Below, piece after piece: positions 32,493 to 44,663 of a stretch of DNA of 64,000 nt. Origin of the DNA: an uncultured Anaeroplasmataceae bacterium (lineage in GTDB: Bacteria; Bacillota_I; Bacilli_A; Acholeplasmatales; Anaeroplasmataceae). Each line of letters starts with the position of its first letter. Position 1 is the first letter of the stretch. The DNA lies in assembly GCA_910579215.1 (NCBI GenBank), contig CAJTTN010000006.1, forward strand, positions 57,376 to 121,375. Reading direction: 5' to 3'. The notes under the pieces were generated by a model that had not been told where the DNA came from, made no database searches, and saw nothing but the letters and a program-made list of their open reading frames with translations. A program made the translations under genes and the position numbers.

Positions 32493-33434
32493 ATGAATAC
32501 AGGAATTATTGTTGCTATTGTATGTAGTGTAATTTTAGTTGTTATTGTTATTTTATTGATTACGAGAATAAAAATTGTTCGTCAAACACAGAAGTTGATT
32601 GTTGAGCGTTTAGGGGCCTATCACGCTACGTGGTCTGTAGGATTTCATTTCTTGGTACCATTTATTGATCGTGTAGCTCAGGTAGTATCTATGAAGGAGC
32701 AGGTTAACGATTTTGATCCACAGCCTGTGATTACAAAAGATAATGTTACTATGCAAATTGATACCGTGGTTTTCTTTCAGGTTACAGATCCAAAGCTATA
32801 TTCCTATGGTGTAGAAAATCCAATTGCCGCTTTAGAAAACTTATCTTCTACAACTTTACGTAATATTATTGGTGAATTAGATTTGGATGAAACTTTAACT
32901 TCACGAGATATTATAAATACAAAGATGAGATCTATTCTAGATGAAGCAACAGATCCTTGGGGTATTAAGGTTAATCGTGTAGAGGTTAAAAATATTTTAC
33001 CACCAAAGGATATTCGAGATGCTATGGAGCGTCAAATGCGTGCTGAGCGTGAACGTCGTGAGAAAATTTTGCTTGCAGAAGGTGAAAAAAGAAGTCAAAT
33101 ACTTCAAGCAGAGGGAGAAAAAGAATCTCAAATCTTAAGAGCAGAGGCAGAAAAGGAAGCCACAATTAAAAAGGCAGAAGCAGAGGCAGCTGCAATTCTT
33201 AAGGTAAGAACAGCAGAGGCTGAAGGTGTTAGACTTACTCGTCAGGCACAAGCAGAAGGATATAGAATGCTAGTAGATGCAGGCTTAACAAAAGAGGTTT
33301 TAGCAATTAAATCCTTTGAAGCTCTAGAGAAGGTTGCTGATGGGCAGTCTACTAAACTAATCATTCCATCTGATATGCAAAATTTAGCTGCTACTATTGC
33401 AAGTTTAGCAGAGGTTGTTAAGGATAAGAAATAA
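32493..33434 (+). CDS. SPFH/band-7 (stomatin/flotillin-like, FloA-type) protein
   Basis: N-terminal TM then SPFH core; EA-rich coiled coil; 313 aa. Confidence 0.75.
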   Translation: MNTGIIVAIVCSVILVVIVILLITRIKIVRQTQKLIVERLGAYHATWSVGFHFLVPFIDRVAQVVSMKEQVNDFDPQPVITKDNVTMQIDTVVFFQVTDPKLYSYGVENPIAALENLSSTTLRNIIGELDLDETLTSRDIINTKMRSILDEATDPWGIKVNRVEVKNILPPKDIRDAMERQMRAERERREKILLAEGEKRSQILQAEGEKESQILRAEAEKEATIKKAEAEAAAILKVRTAEAEGVRLTRQAQAEGYRMLVDAGLTKEVLAIKSFEALEKVADGQSTKLIIPSDMQNLAATIASLAEVVKDKK

Positions 33435-33442
33435 GAAATCAA

Positions 33443-33476
33443 ATGATGCCAAGTGTAAAACCTGGCATTTTTTTGT
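33443..33476 (+). terminator. Rho-independent terminator after the SPFH gene
   Basis: gccaag...ctggc hairpin plus T7. Confidence 0.4.
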
Positions 33477-33512
33477 CTTTAAAAACTTGTATTATTTATT
33501 TTTGACAAAAAA

Positions 33513-33527
33513 TGGTAAAATTTACCA
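33513..33527. promoter_or_regulatory. Perfect 15-bp palindrome TGGTAAAATTTACCA abutting an extended -10 (TGaTATAAT); operator-like site upstream of the ibrA-like gene
   Basis: tggtaaa / tttacca are exact reverse complements around a central a; the -10 lies at 33533-33541. Confidence 0.45.
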
Positions 33528-33569
33528 ATTTATGATATAATGAATAACATAAATCATAAGAGGTCAAAA

Positions 33570-34892
33570 ATGAAAAAGAAATATTTAGAACTAGATGTCT
33601 ATGAAAGCCTAATGAATAGATTAAAATTTATATTTGAAGAATTTGAAAATATTTTTGTTTCTTTTTCTGGTGGAAAGGATAGCGGACTTTTATTAAATTT
33701 AGTTTTAGATTATAAAAGAAAGTATTATCCAGAACGTGTAATAGGTGTTTTTCATCAGGATTTTGAAGCACAATATGACTATACAACTAAATATGTAGAA
33801 AGTACCTTTGAGCGAATAAAAAATGAGGCAGAGCTCTATTGGGTTTGTCTTCCAATGGCTACTAGAACGGCGCTAAGTAGCTATGAAATGTATTGGTATC
33901 CTTGGGATGATAGGCTTCAAGACATTTGGGTAAGACCTCTACCTCAGCATGAATATGTTATTTCATTAGAAAACAATCCTATTACGACTTATAAATATAA
34001 AATGCATCAAGAGGATTTGGCAAAGCAATTTGGAAGATGGTACCGCGCAGTGCATGGAGAAACGTCTACAATATGCTTATTAGGAATTCGTGCTGATGAA
34101 TCCCTACATCGTTACAGTGGATTTTTAAATAAAAAAAAGGGATATAAGCATAAATGCTATATCACACAGCAATTTAAAAATGTATGGTGTGCCTCTCCTT
34201 TATATGATTGGAGTGTTCAGGATGTTTGGCATGCAATAGCGATGCTAGGATATGATTATAATCCTTTGTATGATATTTTTTATCAGGTTGGACTTAAGCC
34301 CTCTATGATGAGAGTTGCCTCTCCATTTAATGATTATGCAAAGGACAGCCTGAATTATTATAGAGTTATTGAACCTGAGACCTGGACAAAGCTTTTAGGT
34401 CGTGTACAGGGTGTTAATTTTGCAGGTATTTATGGTAGAACTAAGGCCTTAGGGTATAGGAGTGTTACCTTACCTGAAGGACATACTTGGGAATCCTATA
34501 CAAAGTTTTTACTTGCCACCTTACCAACAAGAATTAGAAATGGATATTTGAAAAAATTTAAAACCTCTATCGATTTTTGGCATAATGTTGGTGGAGGCTT
34601 AGAAGAATCCACCATTCAAGAATTAGAGGAAAAAGGATATAATATTCAAAGAAATGGTGTTTCAAACTATACTATATTTAAAAATACTAGAATAATTTTT
34701 ATAGGTAAAATACCTGACCATACCGATGACATCAAATCCTCTCGTGATATACCTTCGTGGAAAAGAATGTGCTATTGTATTTTGAAAAATGATCATTTAT
34801 GTAGAAGTATGGGATTTGGTTTGACTAGAGATCAACAAAGAAATTTAGATGTTATAAAGCAAAAATATCTTGCTTTGGAGGAAATAGAATGA
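33570..34892 (+). CDS. PAPS-reductase-family (PP-loop ATP pyrophosphatase) protein with DUF3440-like C-terminal extension, IbrA-like
   Basis: PP-loop SFSGGKDSG; ~440 aa; RBS aagagg 6 nt before the ATG at 33570; stop overlaps the next gene (ATGA). Confidence 0.65.
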   Translation: MKKKYLELDVYESLMNRLKFIFEEFENIFVSFSGGKDSGLLLNLVLDYKRKYYPERVIGVFHQDFEAQYDYTTKYVESTFERIKNEAELYWVCLPMATRTALSSYEMYWYPWDDRLQDIWVRPLPQHEYVISLENNPITTYKYKMHQEDLAKQFGRWYRAVHGETSTICLLGIRADESLHRYSGFLNKKKGYKHKCYITQQFKNVWCASPLYDWSVQDVWHAIAMLGYDYNPLYDIFYQVGLKPSMMRVASPFNDYAKDSLNYYRVIEPETWTKLLGRVQGVNFAGIYGRTKALGYRSVTLPEGHTWESYTKFLLATLPTRIRNGYLKKFKTSIDFWHNVGGGLEESTIQELEEKGYNIQRNGVSNYTIFKNTRIIFIGKIPDHTDDIKSSRDIPSWKRMCYCILKNDHLCRSMGFGLTRDQQRNLDVIKQKYLALEEIE

Positions 34893-35455
34893 GTTCAAAA
34901 AGTCCAGTTTATAAAATTAAGGCAGTTCCAATAGAGAAAATTAATCCTAATTCCTATAATCCTAATTCTGTGGCACCACCAGAAATGAGATTACTTTATG
35001 ATAGTATCAAAGAGGATGGGTATACGATGCCTATCGTTTGTTACTATAATCCAGAGGATGATACATATATCATAGTCGATGGATTTCATAGATATAGAGT
35101 TATGCTTGATTATAAGGATATTTATGAGCGAGAGGGAGGCTGTCTTCCTGTAACTGTAATAGATAAGCCCTTAGATAAACGTATGGCTAGTACAATTCGA
35201 CATAATCGTGCAAGAGGCTCTCATAATGTTGATTTGATGAGTAATATAGTTAGTGAATTGCATGAATTGGGAAGATCTGATGCTTGGATATGTAAGCATT
35301 TAGGTATGCAAAAAGATGAGGTTTTAAGACTAAAACAAATTACAGGATTAGCATCTTTATTTAAGGATATAGACTTTAGTAAGGGCTGGATTCCAGAAGA
35401 TGATTTTGAAACGGAATTTAAGCAATTGGAAGCAGCGTATGTAAATAGAAAATAG
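34889..35455 (+). CDS. ParB/Srx-like nuclease-domain protein, IbrB-like
   Basis: ParB N-terminal-domain motifs (PIEKINPNSYNPNSV; IVDGFHRYRV; HNRARGSH); translationally coupled to the upstream PAPS-reductase-like gene. Confidence 0.65.
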   Translation: MSSKSPVYKIKAVPIEKINPNSYNPNSVAPPEMRLLYDSIKEDGYTMPIVCYYNPEDDTYIIVDGFHRYRVMLDYKDIYEREGGCLPVTVIDKPLDKRMASTIRHNRARGSHNVDLMSNIVSELHELGRSDAWICKHLGMQKDEVLRLKQITGLASLFKDIDFSKGWIPEDDFETEFKQLEAAYVNRK

Positions 35456-35618: not shown

Positions 35619-35694
35619 TGGCGCACCCTAGAGGATTCGAACCCCTAACCTTTTGATCCGTAGTCAAACGATCTATCCAATTGATCTAAGGGTG
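35619..35694 (-). tRNA. tRNA-Arg (anticodon ACG)
   Basis: Reverse complement gives GCACCCTTAGATCAATTGGATAGATCG-TTTGA-CTACGGA-TCAAA...GGGTGCGCCA; cloverleaf folds with ACG in the anticodon loop; encoded CCA. Confidence 0.8.
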
Positions 35695-35709
35695 CATATG
35701 ATTTATTTT

Positions 35710-35785
35710 TGGCGGTTCGGACGGGACTTGAACCCGCGATCTCCAGTGTGACAGACTAGCATGTTAACCACTACACCACCGAACC
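35710..35785 (-). tRNA. tRNA-Asp (anticodon GTC)
   Basis: Reverse complement GGTTCGGTGGTGTAGTGGTTAACATGCTAGTCTGTCACACTGGAGATCGCGGGTTCAAGTCCCGTCCGAACCGCCA; anticodon loop CTGTCAC. Confidence 0.85.
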
Positions 35786-37756: not shown

Positions 37757-37866
37757 AATTATCGATTTTTATTGGGAAATTATTTATAATTTCCTTTTTT
37801 TATTGTATAATAGATTTAGCATTATAATTATATATAATTTTAAAAAAGGAAAAGAGGTTGATTTTT

Positions 37867-39381
37867 ATGGAATTCCCAATACTTATTACAATTATAGTAG
37901 TGGCAGTAGTAATTTTTTTAGTGATTCTTTTCGCTTTATCTTATGTTAAGGCAGGTCCTGATACGGCAATTATGGTAACAGGAGCAGGAAAAAAGAAAAT
38001 TTTAATTGGTAAGGCGGGCTTTAGAATACCCTTTTTTCAAAGAACCGATTCCCTTTCTTTAAAAGCCTTTCAAGTAGATATTAAAACAGAGGAAGCCATT
38101 CCAACTAAGGAATTTATAAACATTAATGTAGATGGTGTAGCTAATTTAAAAATATCTTCTGATACGGAGATGCTAGAAAAGGCATTTGAATCTATTTTAA
38201 ATATGGCTGAATCTGAGCTTCAAAATCAGCTCCAGCAGGTATTGCAGGGAAACATGCGTGAAATTGTTGGTACAGTTGAAATTAAAGAGCTAGTAAGAGA
38301 TCGTCAAGGAGTTGCAAATAAGGTTAAGGAAAATGTTGTACCTGATATGGCTAAGCTTGGAATAGAGGTTGTAAACTTCAATATACAGTCCTTTTCAGAT
38401 GATAATAAGGTTATTGAAAATCTAGGTATAGATAATATTAGTCAAATTTCTAAGGATGCCTCAATAGCTAGAGCGAATGCTGAGCGAGATGTAGCTATTG
38501 CCTCAAGTGCAGCAAGTGAAGCAGCTAATAAAGCTAAAGTAGAATCTCAAATGAAGATTGTGCAGCAAAATACAGATTATGAGCTTCAGGCTGCAGCATT
38601 GAAGCAAAAATCAGATACGGCAAAGGCTGTTGCAGATGCTGCCTATGATATTGAAAAGCAGAAGCGTTTAGAACAGATTAATGTTGCCGAGGTGAACGCA
38701 AATATTGCTAAACGCGAAAGAGAAGTTGAGCTTGGAAATCGTGAAGTTGAATTAAAGGAAAAGAAGCTTCAGGCTGAGGTAAATAAGGTAGCAGATTCAA
38801 AAAAATATGCTGACCAAATGGCTGCAGAAGCGGATTTATTCACGCGTCAAAAGGCTGCAGAAGCAAAGAAATATGAATTAGAACAAGAAGCAGAAATGCA
38901 AAAGATAAAAGCAGAAGCAGATAAAATTGCAAGACAAAAATCAGCAGAGGCTTTTAAGATTCAAGCAGATTTAGAGGCTGCAGCGCAAATTGCGAGAGCA
39001 AACGCAGCTAAAGAAGCAGCTTTAGCTGAAGCCCAGGGAATAGAGGCTAAGGGTAAAGCAGAAGCGGATGCAATACGTGCTAAAGCAGAGGCTATGAAAC
39101 AATATGGAGAAGCTGCAACCTTACAGTTAATTTTAGATTCAGGTGTACTTCCTGAAATGGTTAAGGCTTATGCAGAACCAGTGGCTAGTGCAATGAGTAA
39201 GATAGATAGTATTACTATGTATGGAGAAGGAAATACAGCTAAGCTTACGGAGGAGATATCTAAAAATGGAACCCAAATTTTTGCAGGACTTGAAAAGGCA
39301 ACAGGACTAGATATAAAATCCTTACTTGCAGGTTTTTTGGGTGGTAAGCTGATAGAAAAAAGCAAATCTGACAAAGAATAA
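37867..39381 (+). CDS. Flotillin-like SPFH protein (FloT/YuaG-type) with long EA-rich coiled coil
   Basis: N-terminal TM, SPFH domain, ~250-aa Ala/Glu/Lys-rich repeats; RBS aaagagg before the ATG at 37867. Confidence 0.75.
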   Translation: MEFPILITIIVVAVVIFLVILFALSYVKAGPDTAIMVTGAGKKKILIGKAGFRIPFFQRTDSLSLKAFQVDIKTEEAIPTKEFININVDGVANLKISSDTEMLEKAFESILNMAESELQNQLQQVLQGNMREIVGTVEIKELVRDRQGVANKVKENVVPDMAKLGIEVVNFNIQSFSDDNKVIENLGIDNISQISKDASIARANAERDVAIASSAASEAANKAKVESQMKIVQQNTDYELQAAALKQKSDTAKAVADAAYDIEKQKRLEQINVAEVNANIAKREREVELGNREVELKEKKLQAEVNKVADSKKYADQMAAEADLFTRQKAAEAKKYELEQEAEMQKIKAEADKIARQKSAEAFKIQADLEAAAQIARANAAKEAALAEAQGIEAKGKAEADAIRAKAEAMKQYGEAATLQLILDSGVLPEMVKAYAEPVASAMSKIDSITMYGEGNTAKLTEEISKNGTQIFAGLEKATGLDIKSLLAGFLGGKLIEKSKSDKE

Positions 39382-44572: not shown

Positions 44573-44663
44573 AAACGTTCCGCCTTTCTATAAGATATTA
44601 TAACGCAATCCTTTAAAATTTTCACTAAATCATGGTAAATTTAACCAAAAAATAAGAAAATTC

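What the first reader, a model, noticed from the sequence alone, without database searches (positions are those of the whole stretch)
33513..35455. IbrA/IbrB-like PAPS-reductase + ParB-nuclease two-gene module with its own palindromic operator, beside tRNA genes
A translationally coupled pair sits between a flotillin operon and two tRNA genes, with a perfect 15-bp palindrome on its -10 element. The first gene is a PP-loop (SFSGGKDSG) PAPS-reductase-family protein with a long C-terminal extension; the second is a ParB/sulfiredoxin-fold nuclease-domain protein. This architecture matches the prophage-associated IbrAB co-activator pair, whose biochemical function is unknown. It resembles the DNA sulfur/base-modification modules (DndC/SspD-type PP-loop enzyme plus DNA-binding partner) used in phage defence. 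The location next to tRNA-Arg/Asp is typical of horizontally acquired islets, yet no integrase or other phage genes are nearby. This is a compact, autonomous, possibly autoregulated module of unknown function, and a candidate nucleic-acid modification or defence system.
Basis: partly seen in the sequence, partly recalled or inferred. Interest (0 to 1): 0.6.

Follow-up and report, generated by a model that had tools for sequence, protein, structure and literature searches.

The report
Conserved YbdN/YbdM (IbrAB) gene pair
This is a resident copy of a two-gene operon (an ATP-using PP-loop enzyme plus a ParB-like DNA-binding protein) that is conserved from E. coli to gut Firmicutes and phages and carries its own conserved operator; its biochemical function is still unknown, and it is not a recently acquired defence islet.

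Summary
Two translationally coupled genes (33570-34892 and 34889-35455) follow a terminator and have their own promoter with a 15-bp palindrome. Gene A is PAPS_reduct plus DUF3440 with a canonical SGGKDSG PP-loop. Gene B is a short ParB/KorB/Noc-like protein (nucleotide-binding N-domain plus HTH).

- **Family:** the IbrA/IbrB = YbdN/YbdM assignment is correct.
- **Origin:** the module is not an acquired islet. Its GC equals that of the flanks here and tracks host GC in 76 genomes (r=0.95). Relatives keep the same position, including the two tRNAs. Neighbours in 75 genomes are ordinary genes, with no integrase among the commonest families and no defence clustering.
- **Conservation:** it matches housekeeping genes. 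Against E. coli, B is 48% identical, like MnmG; A is 30%, like RsmG. ybdNM is present in 5421 of 5426 complete E. coli genomes.
- **Operator:** this is the useful result. The half-site TGGWAA, paired 9-11 bp apart, is 267-fold enriched just upstream of gene A across Firmicute classes. This supports autoregulation, probably by B.
- **Phages and Listeria:** the pair follows an SNF2 helicase there, which points to DNA as the target.

The chemistry remains unknown, and sulfur chemistry has no conserved cysteines to support it. This is a new member of a known family that has not been characterised.

The parts
33446..33476 (+). Hairpin plus T-run ending the upstream NfeD/Band7 operon. It isolates the module transcriptionally.
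   Evidence: The sequence ATGCCAAGTGTAAAACCTGGCAT is followed by TTTTTTTG. The terminator scan reported the same hairpin, but called it on the minus strand; the plus-strand reading rests on the T-run read from the sequence.
33502..33507 (+). TTGACA hexamer conserved in relatives. It lies 28 nt from the -10, too far for a standard -35, so its role is unclear.
   Evidence: Read from the sequence. TTGACA, TTGTCA or TTGATA occupies the same place in L001, L003 and L012.
33513..33527 (.). Operator: the 7-1-7 palindrome TGGTAAA-A-TTTACCA, made of two inverted TGGTAA half-sites 9 bp apart. It covers the -35 position and the spacer of the promoter.
   Evidence: It is conserved upstream of gene A in L001, L003, L006 and L012. 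Half-site and paired-site enrichment across Firmicutes is shown.
33533..33541 (+). Extended -10 element TGaTATAAT.
   Evidence: Read from the sequence. TGATATAAT or TGCTATAAT occupies the same place in relatives. This is a consensus match only; the transcription start was not mapped.
33558..33563 (+). Ribosome-binding site AAGAGG, 6 nt before ATG 33570.
33570..34892 (+). Gene A (IbrA/YbdN family, 440 aa). It has a PP-loop ATP-pyrophosphatase domain of the PAPS-reductase fold (about 33648-34283, with SGGKDSG at 33663-33683) and a DUF3440 domain (about 34290-34841).
   Evidence: Pfam and PHROG hits. P0001 is 100% identical over 440 aa. The N-domain model matches FMN adenylyltransferase, CysD, NcsA, LarE and CysH folds. 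Family invariants are listed.
34889..35455 (+). Gene B (IbrB/YbdM family, 188 aa). It has a ParB/Srx N-domain (DGFHR at 35078-35092, RHNRARG at 35198-35218) and a helix-turn-helix (about 35273-35344). It has no C-terminal dimerisation domain.
   Evidence: phrog_2159 at 3.8e-82. The model (pLDDT 72) matches Noc, KorB and ParB over both domains at E 2.5e-7. It is 48% identical to E. coli YbdM.
35619..35785 (-). tRNA-Arg(acg) and tRNA-Asp(gtc), convergent with the operon. These are conserved neighbours in close relatives and are not part of the module.

Best explanation
This is the Anaeroplasmataceae ortholog of the YbdN/YbdM (IbrA/IbrB) pair. It is a long-resident, strongly constrained two-gene operon, not a mobile islet.

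**Shown**
- Gene A is an ATP-binding PP-loop enzyme of the PAPS-reductase fold with an added DUF3440 domain.
- Gene B is a two-domain ParB/KorB/Noc-like protein (nucleotide-binding N-domain plus HTH).
- The two genes are almost always adjacent and often overlap.
- The operon has its own promoter.
- A cassette-specific cis-element made of paired TGGWAA half-sites, one helical turn apart, lies on or just after that promoter.

**Inferred**
- B binds this element and represses its own operon, as DndB and KorB do at their operons.
- B, loaded with a nucleotide, takes A to DNA.
- A uses ATP to adenylate a target on or near DNA (a base, a phosphate or a bound ligand).
- The outcome is a local change in DNA or chromatin that alters gene expression. 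This would account for the reported 'co-activation' of prophage genes in E. coli.
- In phages and in Listeria, an SNF2 translocase extends the action along DNA.

The chemical product is unknown. Sulfur insertion is not favoured, because no cysteine is invariant in either protein.
For: **Identity**
- DUF3440 2.4e-84, PAPS_reduct 1.5e-13, phrog_2302 1e-97 and phrog_2159 4e-82.
- YbdN is 30% and YbdM 48% identical.

**ATP use**
- SGGKDSG, GxRxxESxxR and YDW are invariant from E. coli to phages.
- The fold matches CysD, FMN adenylyltransferase, NcsA and LarE.

**B as a DNA binder**
- Foldseek matches to Noc, KorB and ParB cover both the N-domain and the HTH.
- The motif GM..E..RLK..G is invariant.

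**Obligate pair**
- A is followed by B in 79 of 80 genomes, and there is no conserved third gene.

**Operator**
- The palindrome is conserved in different contexts.
- The a-priori half-site TGGTAA occurs 31 times against 7.0+-2.7 in independent lineages, while five of six point-variant control hexamers are not enriched; TGCTAA (16 against 6.7) probably reflects -10 elements.
- Paired sites number 29 in 11.7 kb upstream of A against 8 in 863 kb elsewhere, a 267-fold enrichment.
- The positions, over the -35/spacer or just after the -10, are those typical of repressors.

**Resident status**
- GC tracking r=0.95.
- Synteny with L011 and L012, including the tRNAs.
- E. coli ybdNM is present in 5421 of 5426 genomes.
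- Listeria lmo1309-1310 is a core gene pair (PMC7020466); with the SNF2 gene lmo1311 it is specific to Listeria sensu stricto (PMC5736727).

**DNA as target**
- An SNF2 helicase (phrog_62, 2.7e-92) lies immediately upstream of A in 26 of 60 viral loci.
- The same trio occurs in S. thermophilus phage D4276, beside AcrIIA5, and in Lactobacillus phage CR28.
- B also matches the ParB-like N-terminal part of a phage DNA methyltransferase family (phrog_498, 4e-13).
Against: - No experiment or solved structure exists for this family, and the papers searched give no biochemical function.
- Binding of B to the TGGWAA element is inferred only from co-travel. A host regulator could bind it instead.
- The element is absent upstream of E. 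coli ybdN, which is repressed by CitR (PMC9068703), and from the phage loci. Yet the putative recognition helix of B is nearly invariant across these lineages, which fits poorly with a lineage-specific operator.
- The half-sites occur in direct, inverted and everted arrangements, which is unusual for one dimeric HTH protein.
- Only 28 of 78 loci have a strict paired site.
- The DUF3440 model is unreliable (pLDDT below 50), so nothing is known about the substrate pocket.
- The link to DNA rests on gene neighbourhood in phages and Listeria, not in this genome, where no SNF2 gene is adjacent.
Confidence: 0.5

Rival explanations
1. A purely regulatory pair with no covalent change to DNA. B would be a nucleotide-switched ParB-like regulator, comparable to KorB or to the anti-silencer VirB. 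It would load at specific sites and activate or de-repress other genes. A would act as an obligatory co-factor, for example by making or consuming the nucleotide ligand of B.
For: - B matches KorB, Noc and ParB over both domains.
- An operator sits at its own promoter.
- The family name comes from genetic co-activation of prophage eib genes in E. coli (from my own knowledge of Sandt et al. 2002; the paper was not read here).
- Annotations as 'co-activator of prophage gene expression' appear.
- Relatives of A in the same fold (CysD, FMN adenylyltransferase) transfer AMP to small molecules.
Against: - In B the ParB motif GERRYR is replaced by GFHRYR, so the glutamate of that motif (which I recall, without checking here, as needed for CTP hydrolysis) is missing.
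- Pairing of a large enzyme with a regulator in 79 of 80 genomes, together with the SNF2 linkage in phages, suggests catalysis on DNA.
- No second perfect operator exists in the 64-kb window. There is only one near-copy, at 44633.
Confidence: 0.25
2. An anti-phage defence or Dnd/Ssp-like DNA sulfur-modification module. A would thiolate DNA, and B would be its DNA-binding or nicking partner.
For: - Weak similarity of A to DndC (PADLOC 1.7e-8; NCBIfam TIGR03183 27 bits) and to BrxP.
- DndB is also a DGxHR ParB-like autoregulator (from my own knowledge).
- A NERD gene in L001 and a RhuM gene in L003 lie nearby.
Against: - DndC scores 27.3 bits against a cut-off of 290.4, and there are no DndA/D/E, SspA/B/C or restriction partners.
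- No cysteine is invariant in A or B.
- B has no PADLOC hit.
- Among 140 neighbours in 75 genomes, the 25 commonest Pfam families include no integrase or transposase, and the few PADLOC hits (4 to mad3, scattered ATPase-type models) show no defence clustering.
- The core-like distribution in E. coli and Listeria, with host-matched GC, is not the pattern of defence islands.
Confidence: 0.08
3. An RNA (tRNA or rRNA) modification enzyme. A would act like TilS, TtcA or NcsA on a universal RNA, and B would be an RNA-binding or activating subunit.
For: - Conservation at housekeeping level: B against YbdM is 48%, equal to MnmG; A against YbdN is 30%, equal to RsmG.
- The near-invariant 'recognition' helix of B across phyla would fit a universal target.
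- PP-loop tRNA enzymes are among the fold matches (NcsA, TilS).
- Two tRNA genes lie next to the operon in four related genomes.
Against: - The tRNA genes are convergent, and they are absent next to the cassette in the two more distant genomes checked (L013, L014).
- The SNF2 dsDNA translocase linkage and the location in phage early regions point to DNA.
- B has the architecture of a DNA-binding ParB.
Confidence: 0.1
4. A toxin-antitoxin pair, with B as the antitoxin and A as the toxin, as listed by guilt-by-association in TASmania.
For: Two overlapping genes with an autoregulated promoter. The Listeria pair lmo1309/1310 is listed as a candidate (PMC7020466).
Against: - At 440 aa, the conserved enzyme is unlike known toxins.
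- The gene order is enzyme first.
- The conservation is at housekeeping level, and the pair is carried by lytic phages in early operons.
- The listing was by neighbourhood only.
Confidence: 0.03
5. Ordinary sulfate assimilation (a CysH-type PAPS/APS reductase).
For: The Pfam name PAPS_reduct, and the usual annotation as 'phosphoadenosine phosphosulfate reductase'.
Against: - CysH TIGR00434 scores 19.1 bits against a cut-off of 165.1, APS reductase 17.2 against 235.3, and CysD 17.2 against 195.
- A keeps the ATP-binding SGGKDS loop.
- A lacks a conserved catalytic C-terminal cysteine.
- No cys genes are nearby.
Confidence: 0.01

Closest known systems
[quoted passage not shown]
   Same: The domain architecture, gene order and overlapping genes are the same. 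YbdN is 30% and YbdM 48% identical to the window proteins over nearly full length. The invariant motifs are shared. Both copies are chromosomal and core-like.
   Different: E. coli ybdNM is controlled by the adjacent LysR regulator CitR/YbdO (PMC9068703) and has no TGGWAA element upstream. YbdM carries a 40-residue N-terminal extension, and YbdN lacks about 40 residues of DUF3440. The function is unknown in both.
DndB/DndC of the DNA phosphorothioation system
   Same: It pairs a ParB/Srx-type DGxHR protein with a PP-loop enzyme of the PAPS-reductase fold. It may also be autoregulated by the ParB-like partner, as I recall for DndB.
   Different: The DndC model scores 27 bits against a cut-off of 290. 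No DndA, DndD or DndE is present. There is no invariant cysteine set for an Fe-S cluster. The DUF3440 domain is absent from DndC.
KorB, Noc and ParB (CTP-dependent DNA clamps that load at palindromic sites)
   Same: B has the same two-domain arrangement (N-domain plus HTH) by structure comparison, at E 2.5e-7. A palindromic site lies at its own promoter, as with KorB operators.
   Different: B has no C-terminal dimerisation domain. Its motif GFHRYR replaces GERRYR. The ParB TIGR00180 model scores 23.8 bits against a cut-off of 58.45, and Noc scores 26 against 315. B is partnered with an enzyme rather than with ParA or KorA.
Phage and Listeria SNF2-IbrA-IbrB trios
   Same: A and B are homologous. 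B is 50-80% identical, even where A is only 29-63% identical.
   Different: The trios are preceded by an SNF2 helicase and embedded in phage early or replication operons without the operator. The window copy has no SNF2 partner within 6 genes.

Membership tests
IbrA/YbdN family (PAPS_reduct + DUF3440) | A DUF3440 domain C-terminal to a PAPS-reductase-fold domain. | tested here: met
   PF11922 scores 282 bits (cut-off 25) and PF01507 51.6 bits (cut-off 22.5). phrog_2302 matches at 1.3e-97 over residues 11-444.
IbrA/YbdN family (PAPS_reduct + DUF3440) | Full-length homology to E. coli YbdN. | tested here: met
   BLASTP gives 30% identity over 435 columns, E 3e-62.
IbrB/YbdM family (short ParB-like protein with HTH) | Full-length homology to E. 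coli YbdM, which RefSeq annotates as 'IbrB-like domain-containing protein'. | tested here: met
   BLASTP gives 48% identity over 164 columns, E 2e-51. The annotation appears. phrog_2159 matches at 3.8e-82.
IbrAB system | A followed directly by B in one operon. | tested here: met
   The genes overlap by ATGA in the window. A is followed by B in 79 of 80 genomes.
IbrAB system | Activation of prophage (eib) gene expression, the phenotype that named the family. | not testable with these tools
   This needs genetics. No eib-like gene or prophage was looked for beyond the ORFs at 28-39 kb.
DndC / SspD (DNA sulfur modification PP-loop enzymes) | A score above the curated DndC equivalog threshold. | tested here: not met
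   TIGR03183 scores 27.3 bits against a cut-off of 290.4. PADLOC DndC scores 31.9 bits over 100 residues only.
DndC / SspD (DNA sulfur modification PP-loop enzymes) | Conserved cysteines for an Fe-S cluster or persulfide chemistry. | tested here: not met
   No cysteine is invariant across the family. C93, C401 and C411 are each missing in some members.
DndC / SspD (DNA sulfur modification PP-loop enzymes) | Partner genes (DndA/D/E or SspA/B/C). | tested here: not met
   No conserved third gene was found in 80 genomes. The neighbours are unrelated.
CysH / APS reductase / CysD (sulfate assimilation) | A score above the curated thresholds. | tested here: not met
   The scores are 19.1 against 165.1, 17.2 against 235.3 and 17.2 against 195.
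Canonical ParB/Spo0J or Noc | A score above the curated thresholds, and the GERRxRA CTP-binding motif. | tested here: not met
   TIGR00180 scores 23.8 against 58.45 and Noc 26.1 against 315. GFHRYR aligns to the GERRYR of Spo0J.
Known anti-phage defence systems (PADLOC) | Both proteins match the models of one system. | tested here: not met
   A has only weak DndC and BrxP hits, and B has none.

The most novel reading that the evidence does not exclude
The YbdN/YbdM (IbrAB) pair is a ParB-guided, ATP-dependent nucleic-acid modification system that has not been recognised as such. It would be a new kind of DNA mark, or of DNA-bound adenylylation. It would be kept as a near-housekeeping function from E. 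coli to Mollicute-like Firmicutes. Phages would have borrowed it, together with an SNF2 translocase, to protect or reprogramme DNA early in infection. The TGGWAA pair would be its loading or autoregulatory site.
Probability: 0.25. Interest if true: 0.8.

Novelty: new member of a known kind. Interest (0 to 1): 0.42.

Why it matters
The family is very common. Both protein searches returned thousands of homologs, listed by source names mostly as Lachnospiraceae and relatives. It is also a core pair in E. coli K-12 and in Listeria monocytogenes, and it occurs in dairy and gut phages beside an anti-CRISPR gene. Even so, no biochemical activity is known for it. This analysis makes three points:
- The usual labels ('PAPS reductase', 'partition protein', 'AMG for sulfur metabolism') are misleading.
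- The chromosomal copies are old residents under housekeeping-grade constraint. They are not mobile defence cargo.
- The Firmicute copies carry a conserved operator, which gives a direct experimental handle (EMSA, reporter fusions, de-repression to reveal the phenotype).

If the pair proves to modify DNA, it would add a new ParB-guided modification system.

Tried and rejected
- **Structure of A.** The alignment was shallow (22 sequences at 72-93% identity). The model had pLDDT 57 overall and below 50 across DUF3440, so only the known N-terminal fold could be matched.
- **Profile search of PDB with a diverse A alignment.** It returned only weak PP-loop hits and nothing for DUF3440.
- **Metagenome scan for the palindrome plus flank.** There were 90 hits, of which 80 were fetched and screened; only 2 of those lie next to ibrA. 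One of those (L208) is 100% identical to gene A and is probably the source contig. The remainder come from unrelated GC ranges, and their number is close to my rough chance estimate. The scan therefore says nothing about a regulon.
- **Search for the operator in phage loci and at E. coli ybdN.** It is absent there.
- **Fe-S or cysteine chemistry.** I rejected this because the six cysteines that are invariant among close homologs are not conserved family-wide.
- **Apparent fusions of B.** P0121 and P0122 are assembly duplications. The longer relatives are intein or homing-endonuclease insertions, or have unannotated extensions. None is a fusion to A or to a known enzyme.
- **Literature.** Nine searches found no paper with a biochemical function.
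- **Riboswitch or leader.** Rfam found only the two tRNAs.
Full report
**1. What is there**

Two genes lie on the plus strand between 33.5 and 35.5 kb. The ORF of gene A opens at 33540, but the probable start is ATG 33570. That start follows an AAGAGG ribosome-binding site and gives a 440-aa protein identical to a database entry. Gene B (34889-35455, 188 aa) starts inside the stop codon of A (ATGA).

Upstream, the NfeD/Band7 operon ends in a hairpin with a T-run at 33446-33476. Downstream lie tRNA-Arg(acg) and tRNA-Asp(gtc) on the opposite strand.

The palindrome TGGTAAA-A-TTTACCA (33513-33527) is perfect. The -10 is an extended TGaTATAAT at 33533-33541, and the palindrome covers the -35 position and the spacer. 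Rfam finds no leader or riboswitch.

**2. The proteins**

Gene A contains PAPS_reduct (1.5e-13) and DUF3440 (2.4e-84), and it matches phrog_2302 over its whole length. The following are invariant from E. coli YbdN to phage homologs:
- the PP-loop SGGKDSG;
- the GxRxxESxxR and YDW motifs;
- several tryptophans and arginines.

The modelled N-domain resembles FMN adenylyltransferase, CysD, NcsA, LarE and CysH. Because the ATP-binding loop is intact, A is better described as an ATP pyrophosphatase or adenylyl-transfer enzyme than as a reductase. That reading draws on my own knowledge of the fold.

A fails the curated thresholds for CysH, APS reductase, CysD and DndC by wide margins. Six cysteines are invariant among close homologs, but none is invariant family-wide. 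A universal Fe-S or persulfide mechanism is therefore not supported. DUF3440 could not be modelled (pLDDT below 50) and has no detectable relative in the PDB.

Gene B matches ParB_N only weakly in Pfam but matches phrog_2159 at 3.8e-82. Its model (pLDDT 72) matches Noc, KorB and ParB over both the N-domain and the helix-turn-helix. It matches sulfiredoxin, SbnI and serine kinase over the N-domain alone. Where ParB has GERRYR, B has GFHRYR. That is the DGxHR variant found in sulfiredoxin, serine kinase and, as I recall, DndB. The family-wide invariants of B are NxYNPNxVA, DGxHR, TIRHNRARGxH and the HTH signature GM..E..RLK..G.

**3. The pair elsewhere**

A scan of one genome per species found at least 547 loci. 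In the best 80, A is followed by B in 79, and no third gene is conserved.

The 140 immediate neighbours in 75 genomes fall into 146 Pfam families. None occurs more than four times. The 25 commonest families are all metabolic, transport or regulatory, with no integrase, transposase or phage family among them. PADLOC hits among the neighbours are few and show no defence clustering.

Cassette GC follows flank GC from 0.29 to 0.58 (r=0.95, mean difference -0.001). In the window the values are 0.331 and 0.326.

Three related Anaeroplasmataceae genomes keep the cassette between the Band7 gene and an M42 peptidase. In two of them the same two tRNAs follow directly. What varies is the other genes inserted around the cassette.

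Against E. coli, B is 48% identical to YbdM, the same as MnmG. A is 30% identical to YbdN, the same as RsmG. ybdNM is present in 5421 of 5426 complete E. coli genomes, often with extra copies. Listeria lmo1310-lmo1309 is a core pair (PMC7020466) and, with the SNF2 gene lmo1311, is specific to Listeria sensu stricto (PMC5736727).

These facts describe an old, resident, strongly constrained gene pair. They do not describe a recently acquired islet.

**4. The operator**

The palindrome recurs 55-63 nt upstream of gene A in Anaeroplasmataceae genomes where the cassette has different neighbours.

In Lachnospiraceae and other Firmicutes the exact palindrome is absent. Pairs of TGG(T/A)AA half-sites, 9-11 bp apart, lie just after the -10 element instead.

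As a control I used the half-site defined from the window alone (TGGTAA) and only lineages that lack the palindrome:
- The 150 nt upstream of A hold 31 copies, against 7.0+-2.7 in shuffles (maximum 16 in 1000).
- The density is 2.76 per kb there, against 0.52 per kb elsewhere in the loci.
- Five of the six point-variant control hexamers are not enriched; TGCTAA (16 against 6.7) probably reflects -10 elements such as TGCTAAAT.

Strict paired sites occur 29 times in 11.7 kb upstream of A and 8 times in the other 863 kb, a 267-fold enrichment. Two of those eight also lie upstream of A, at -172 and -297.

The only DNA-binding protein that travels with the element is B, so autorepression by B is the simplest reading. 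There are cautions:
- Only 28 of 78 loci have a strict pair.
- The half-sites occur in three orientations.
- The element is missing at E. coli ybdN and in the phage loci.
- A host regulator cannot be excluded.

**5. Phage copies**

In 26 of 60 viral contigs an SNF2-type helicase (phrog_62) lies directly upstream of A, within replication or early modules.

In S. thermophilus phage D4276 the trio lies in the lysogeny-replacement region, two genes after AcrIIA5. Lactobacillus phage CR28 has the same trio after the lysin gene.

B stays 55-80% identical in the viral loci where A drops to 38-63%. B also matches the ParB-like N-terminal part of a phage DNA methyltransferase family (phrog_498).

These associations point to DNA as the substrate, and in phages to an early or anti-defence role. 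They are neighbourhood evidence only.

**6. Mechanism**

*Shown:* an ATP-binding PP-loop enzyme, a ParB/KorB-like DNA-binding partner, obligate pairing, an autonomous promoter and a cassette-specific operator.

*Inferred:* B represses its own promoter. B brings A to DNA. A adenylates a target there, with an effect on expression. SNF2 extends the action in phages and Listeria.

I put about 0.5 on this overall picture. Within that, autoregulation is about 0.6 and covalent DNA modification about 0.35-0.4.

The rivals are a purely regulatory nucleotide switch (0.25), RNA modification (0.1), Dnd-like defence (0.08), toxin-antitoxin (0.03) and sulfate assimilation (0.01).

**7. Novelty and score**

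The family is known and named (IbrAB, YbdNM, DUF3440), but its function is unknown. This locus is a typical new member.

Three things may be new, as far as the papers I could search show:
- the conserved TGGWAA operator;
- the housekeeping-grade conservation;
- the evidence against mobility and defence.

Interest is moderate. The instance is ordinary, but the family is a widespread open problem, and it now has a concrete experimental handle.

Noticed in passing
window 44633-44647: TGGTAAATTTAACCA is a near-copy (1-2 mismatches) of the operator palindrome. It lies in the divergent intergenic region between a 405-aa gene (minus strand) and a 65-aa gene whose translation looks like a cold-shock protein (plus strand). 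It could be a second target site or a chance match.
   Followed up: partly
window 9821-9835: TGGAAAGGATTTCCA is the only other strict paired half-site in the 64-kb window. It lies inside ORF 7905-9899.
   Followed up: no
window 33435-33512, compared with L001 7106-7900 and L012 2727-5830: The gap between the Band7 gene and ibrA is a variable slot in relatives. It is empty here. L001 has a short-chain dehydrogenase there, and L012 has a 450-aa protein that looks like a radical-SAM enzyme plus two that look like membrane proteins (judged from the translations only). L001 also has a NERD gene between ibrB and tRNA-Arg.
   Followed up: partly
L053 (MAG labelled Prevotella sp.) and L057 (MAG labelled Alistipes sp.): These contigs carry cassettes 72-73% identical to the window. 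L053 has GC 0.31, and its ibrA upstream region is almost identical to that of an Anaeroplasma bactoclasticum MAG (L044). It is probably a mis-binned contig rather than a transfer to Bacteroidota.
   Followed up: partly
P0336, P0313, P0297 (relatives of gene B): Some IbrB homologs are interrupted by large insertions. In P0336 the insertion looks like an intein (DGY|CVEAD...AMHN|TQPIV) and lies inside the invariant DGYTxP motif; in P0313 a large unannotated insertion lies a few residues after that motif. P0297 has an N-terminal LAGLIDADG endonuclease domain.
   Followed up: partly
L112-L116, L118-L126, L128-L129 (viral contigs): A subgroup of viral contigs carries an IbrA homolog (45% identical) with no IbrB in the held flanks. 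Genes matching integrase and endolysin families lie nearby.
   Followed up: partly
L153 (Streptococcus phage D4276) 4978-8759: The anti-CRISPR gene AcrIIA5 lies two genes upstream of the SNF2-like/IbrA/IbrB trio, in the lysogeny-replacement region.
   Followed up: no
L208 (metagenome contig Ga0209694_1000286, 92 kb): It encodes a gene A product 100% identical to the window's and has the same operator. It is probably the source contig of the window, or a very close strain.
   Followed up: no
window 32493-33434 and 37858-39381: Two separate SPFH/flotillin-type genes lie within 6 kb of each other. The first is paired with NfeD; the second (507 aa) was judged flotillin-like from its translation only.
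   Followed up: no
L024 (Blautia MAG) 6001-7320: This is the only one of 80 genomes in which gene A has no gene B after it. The next gene is on the opposite strand.
   Followed up: no
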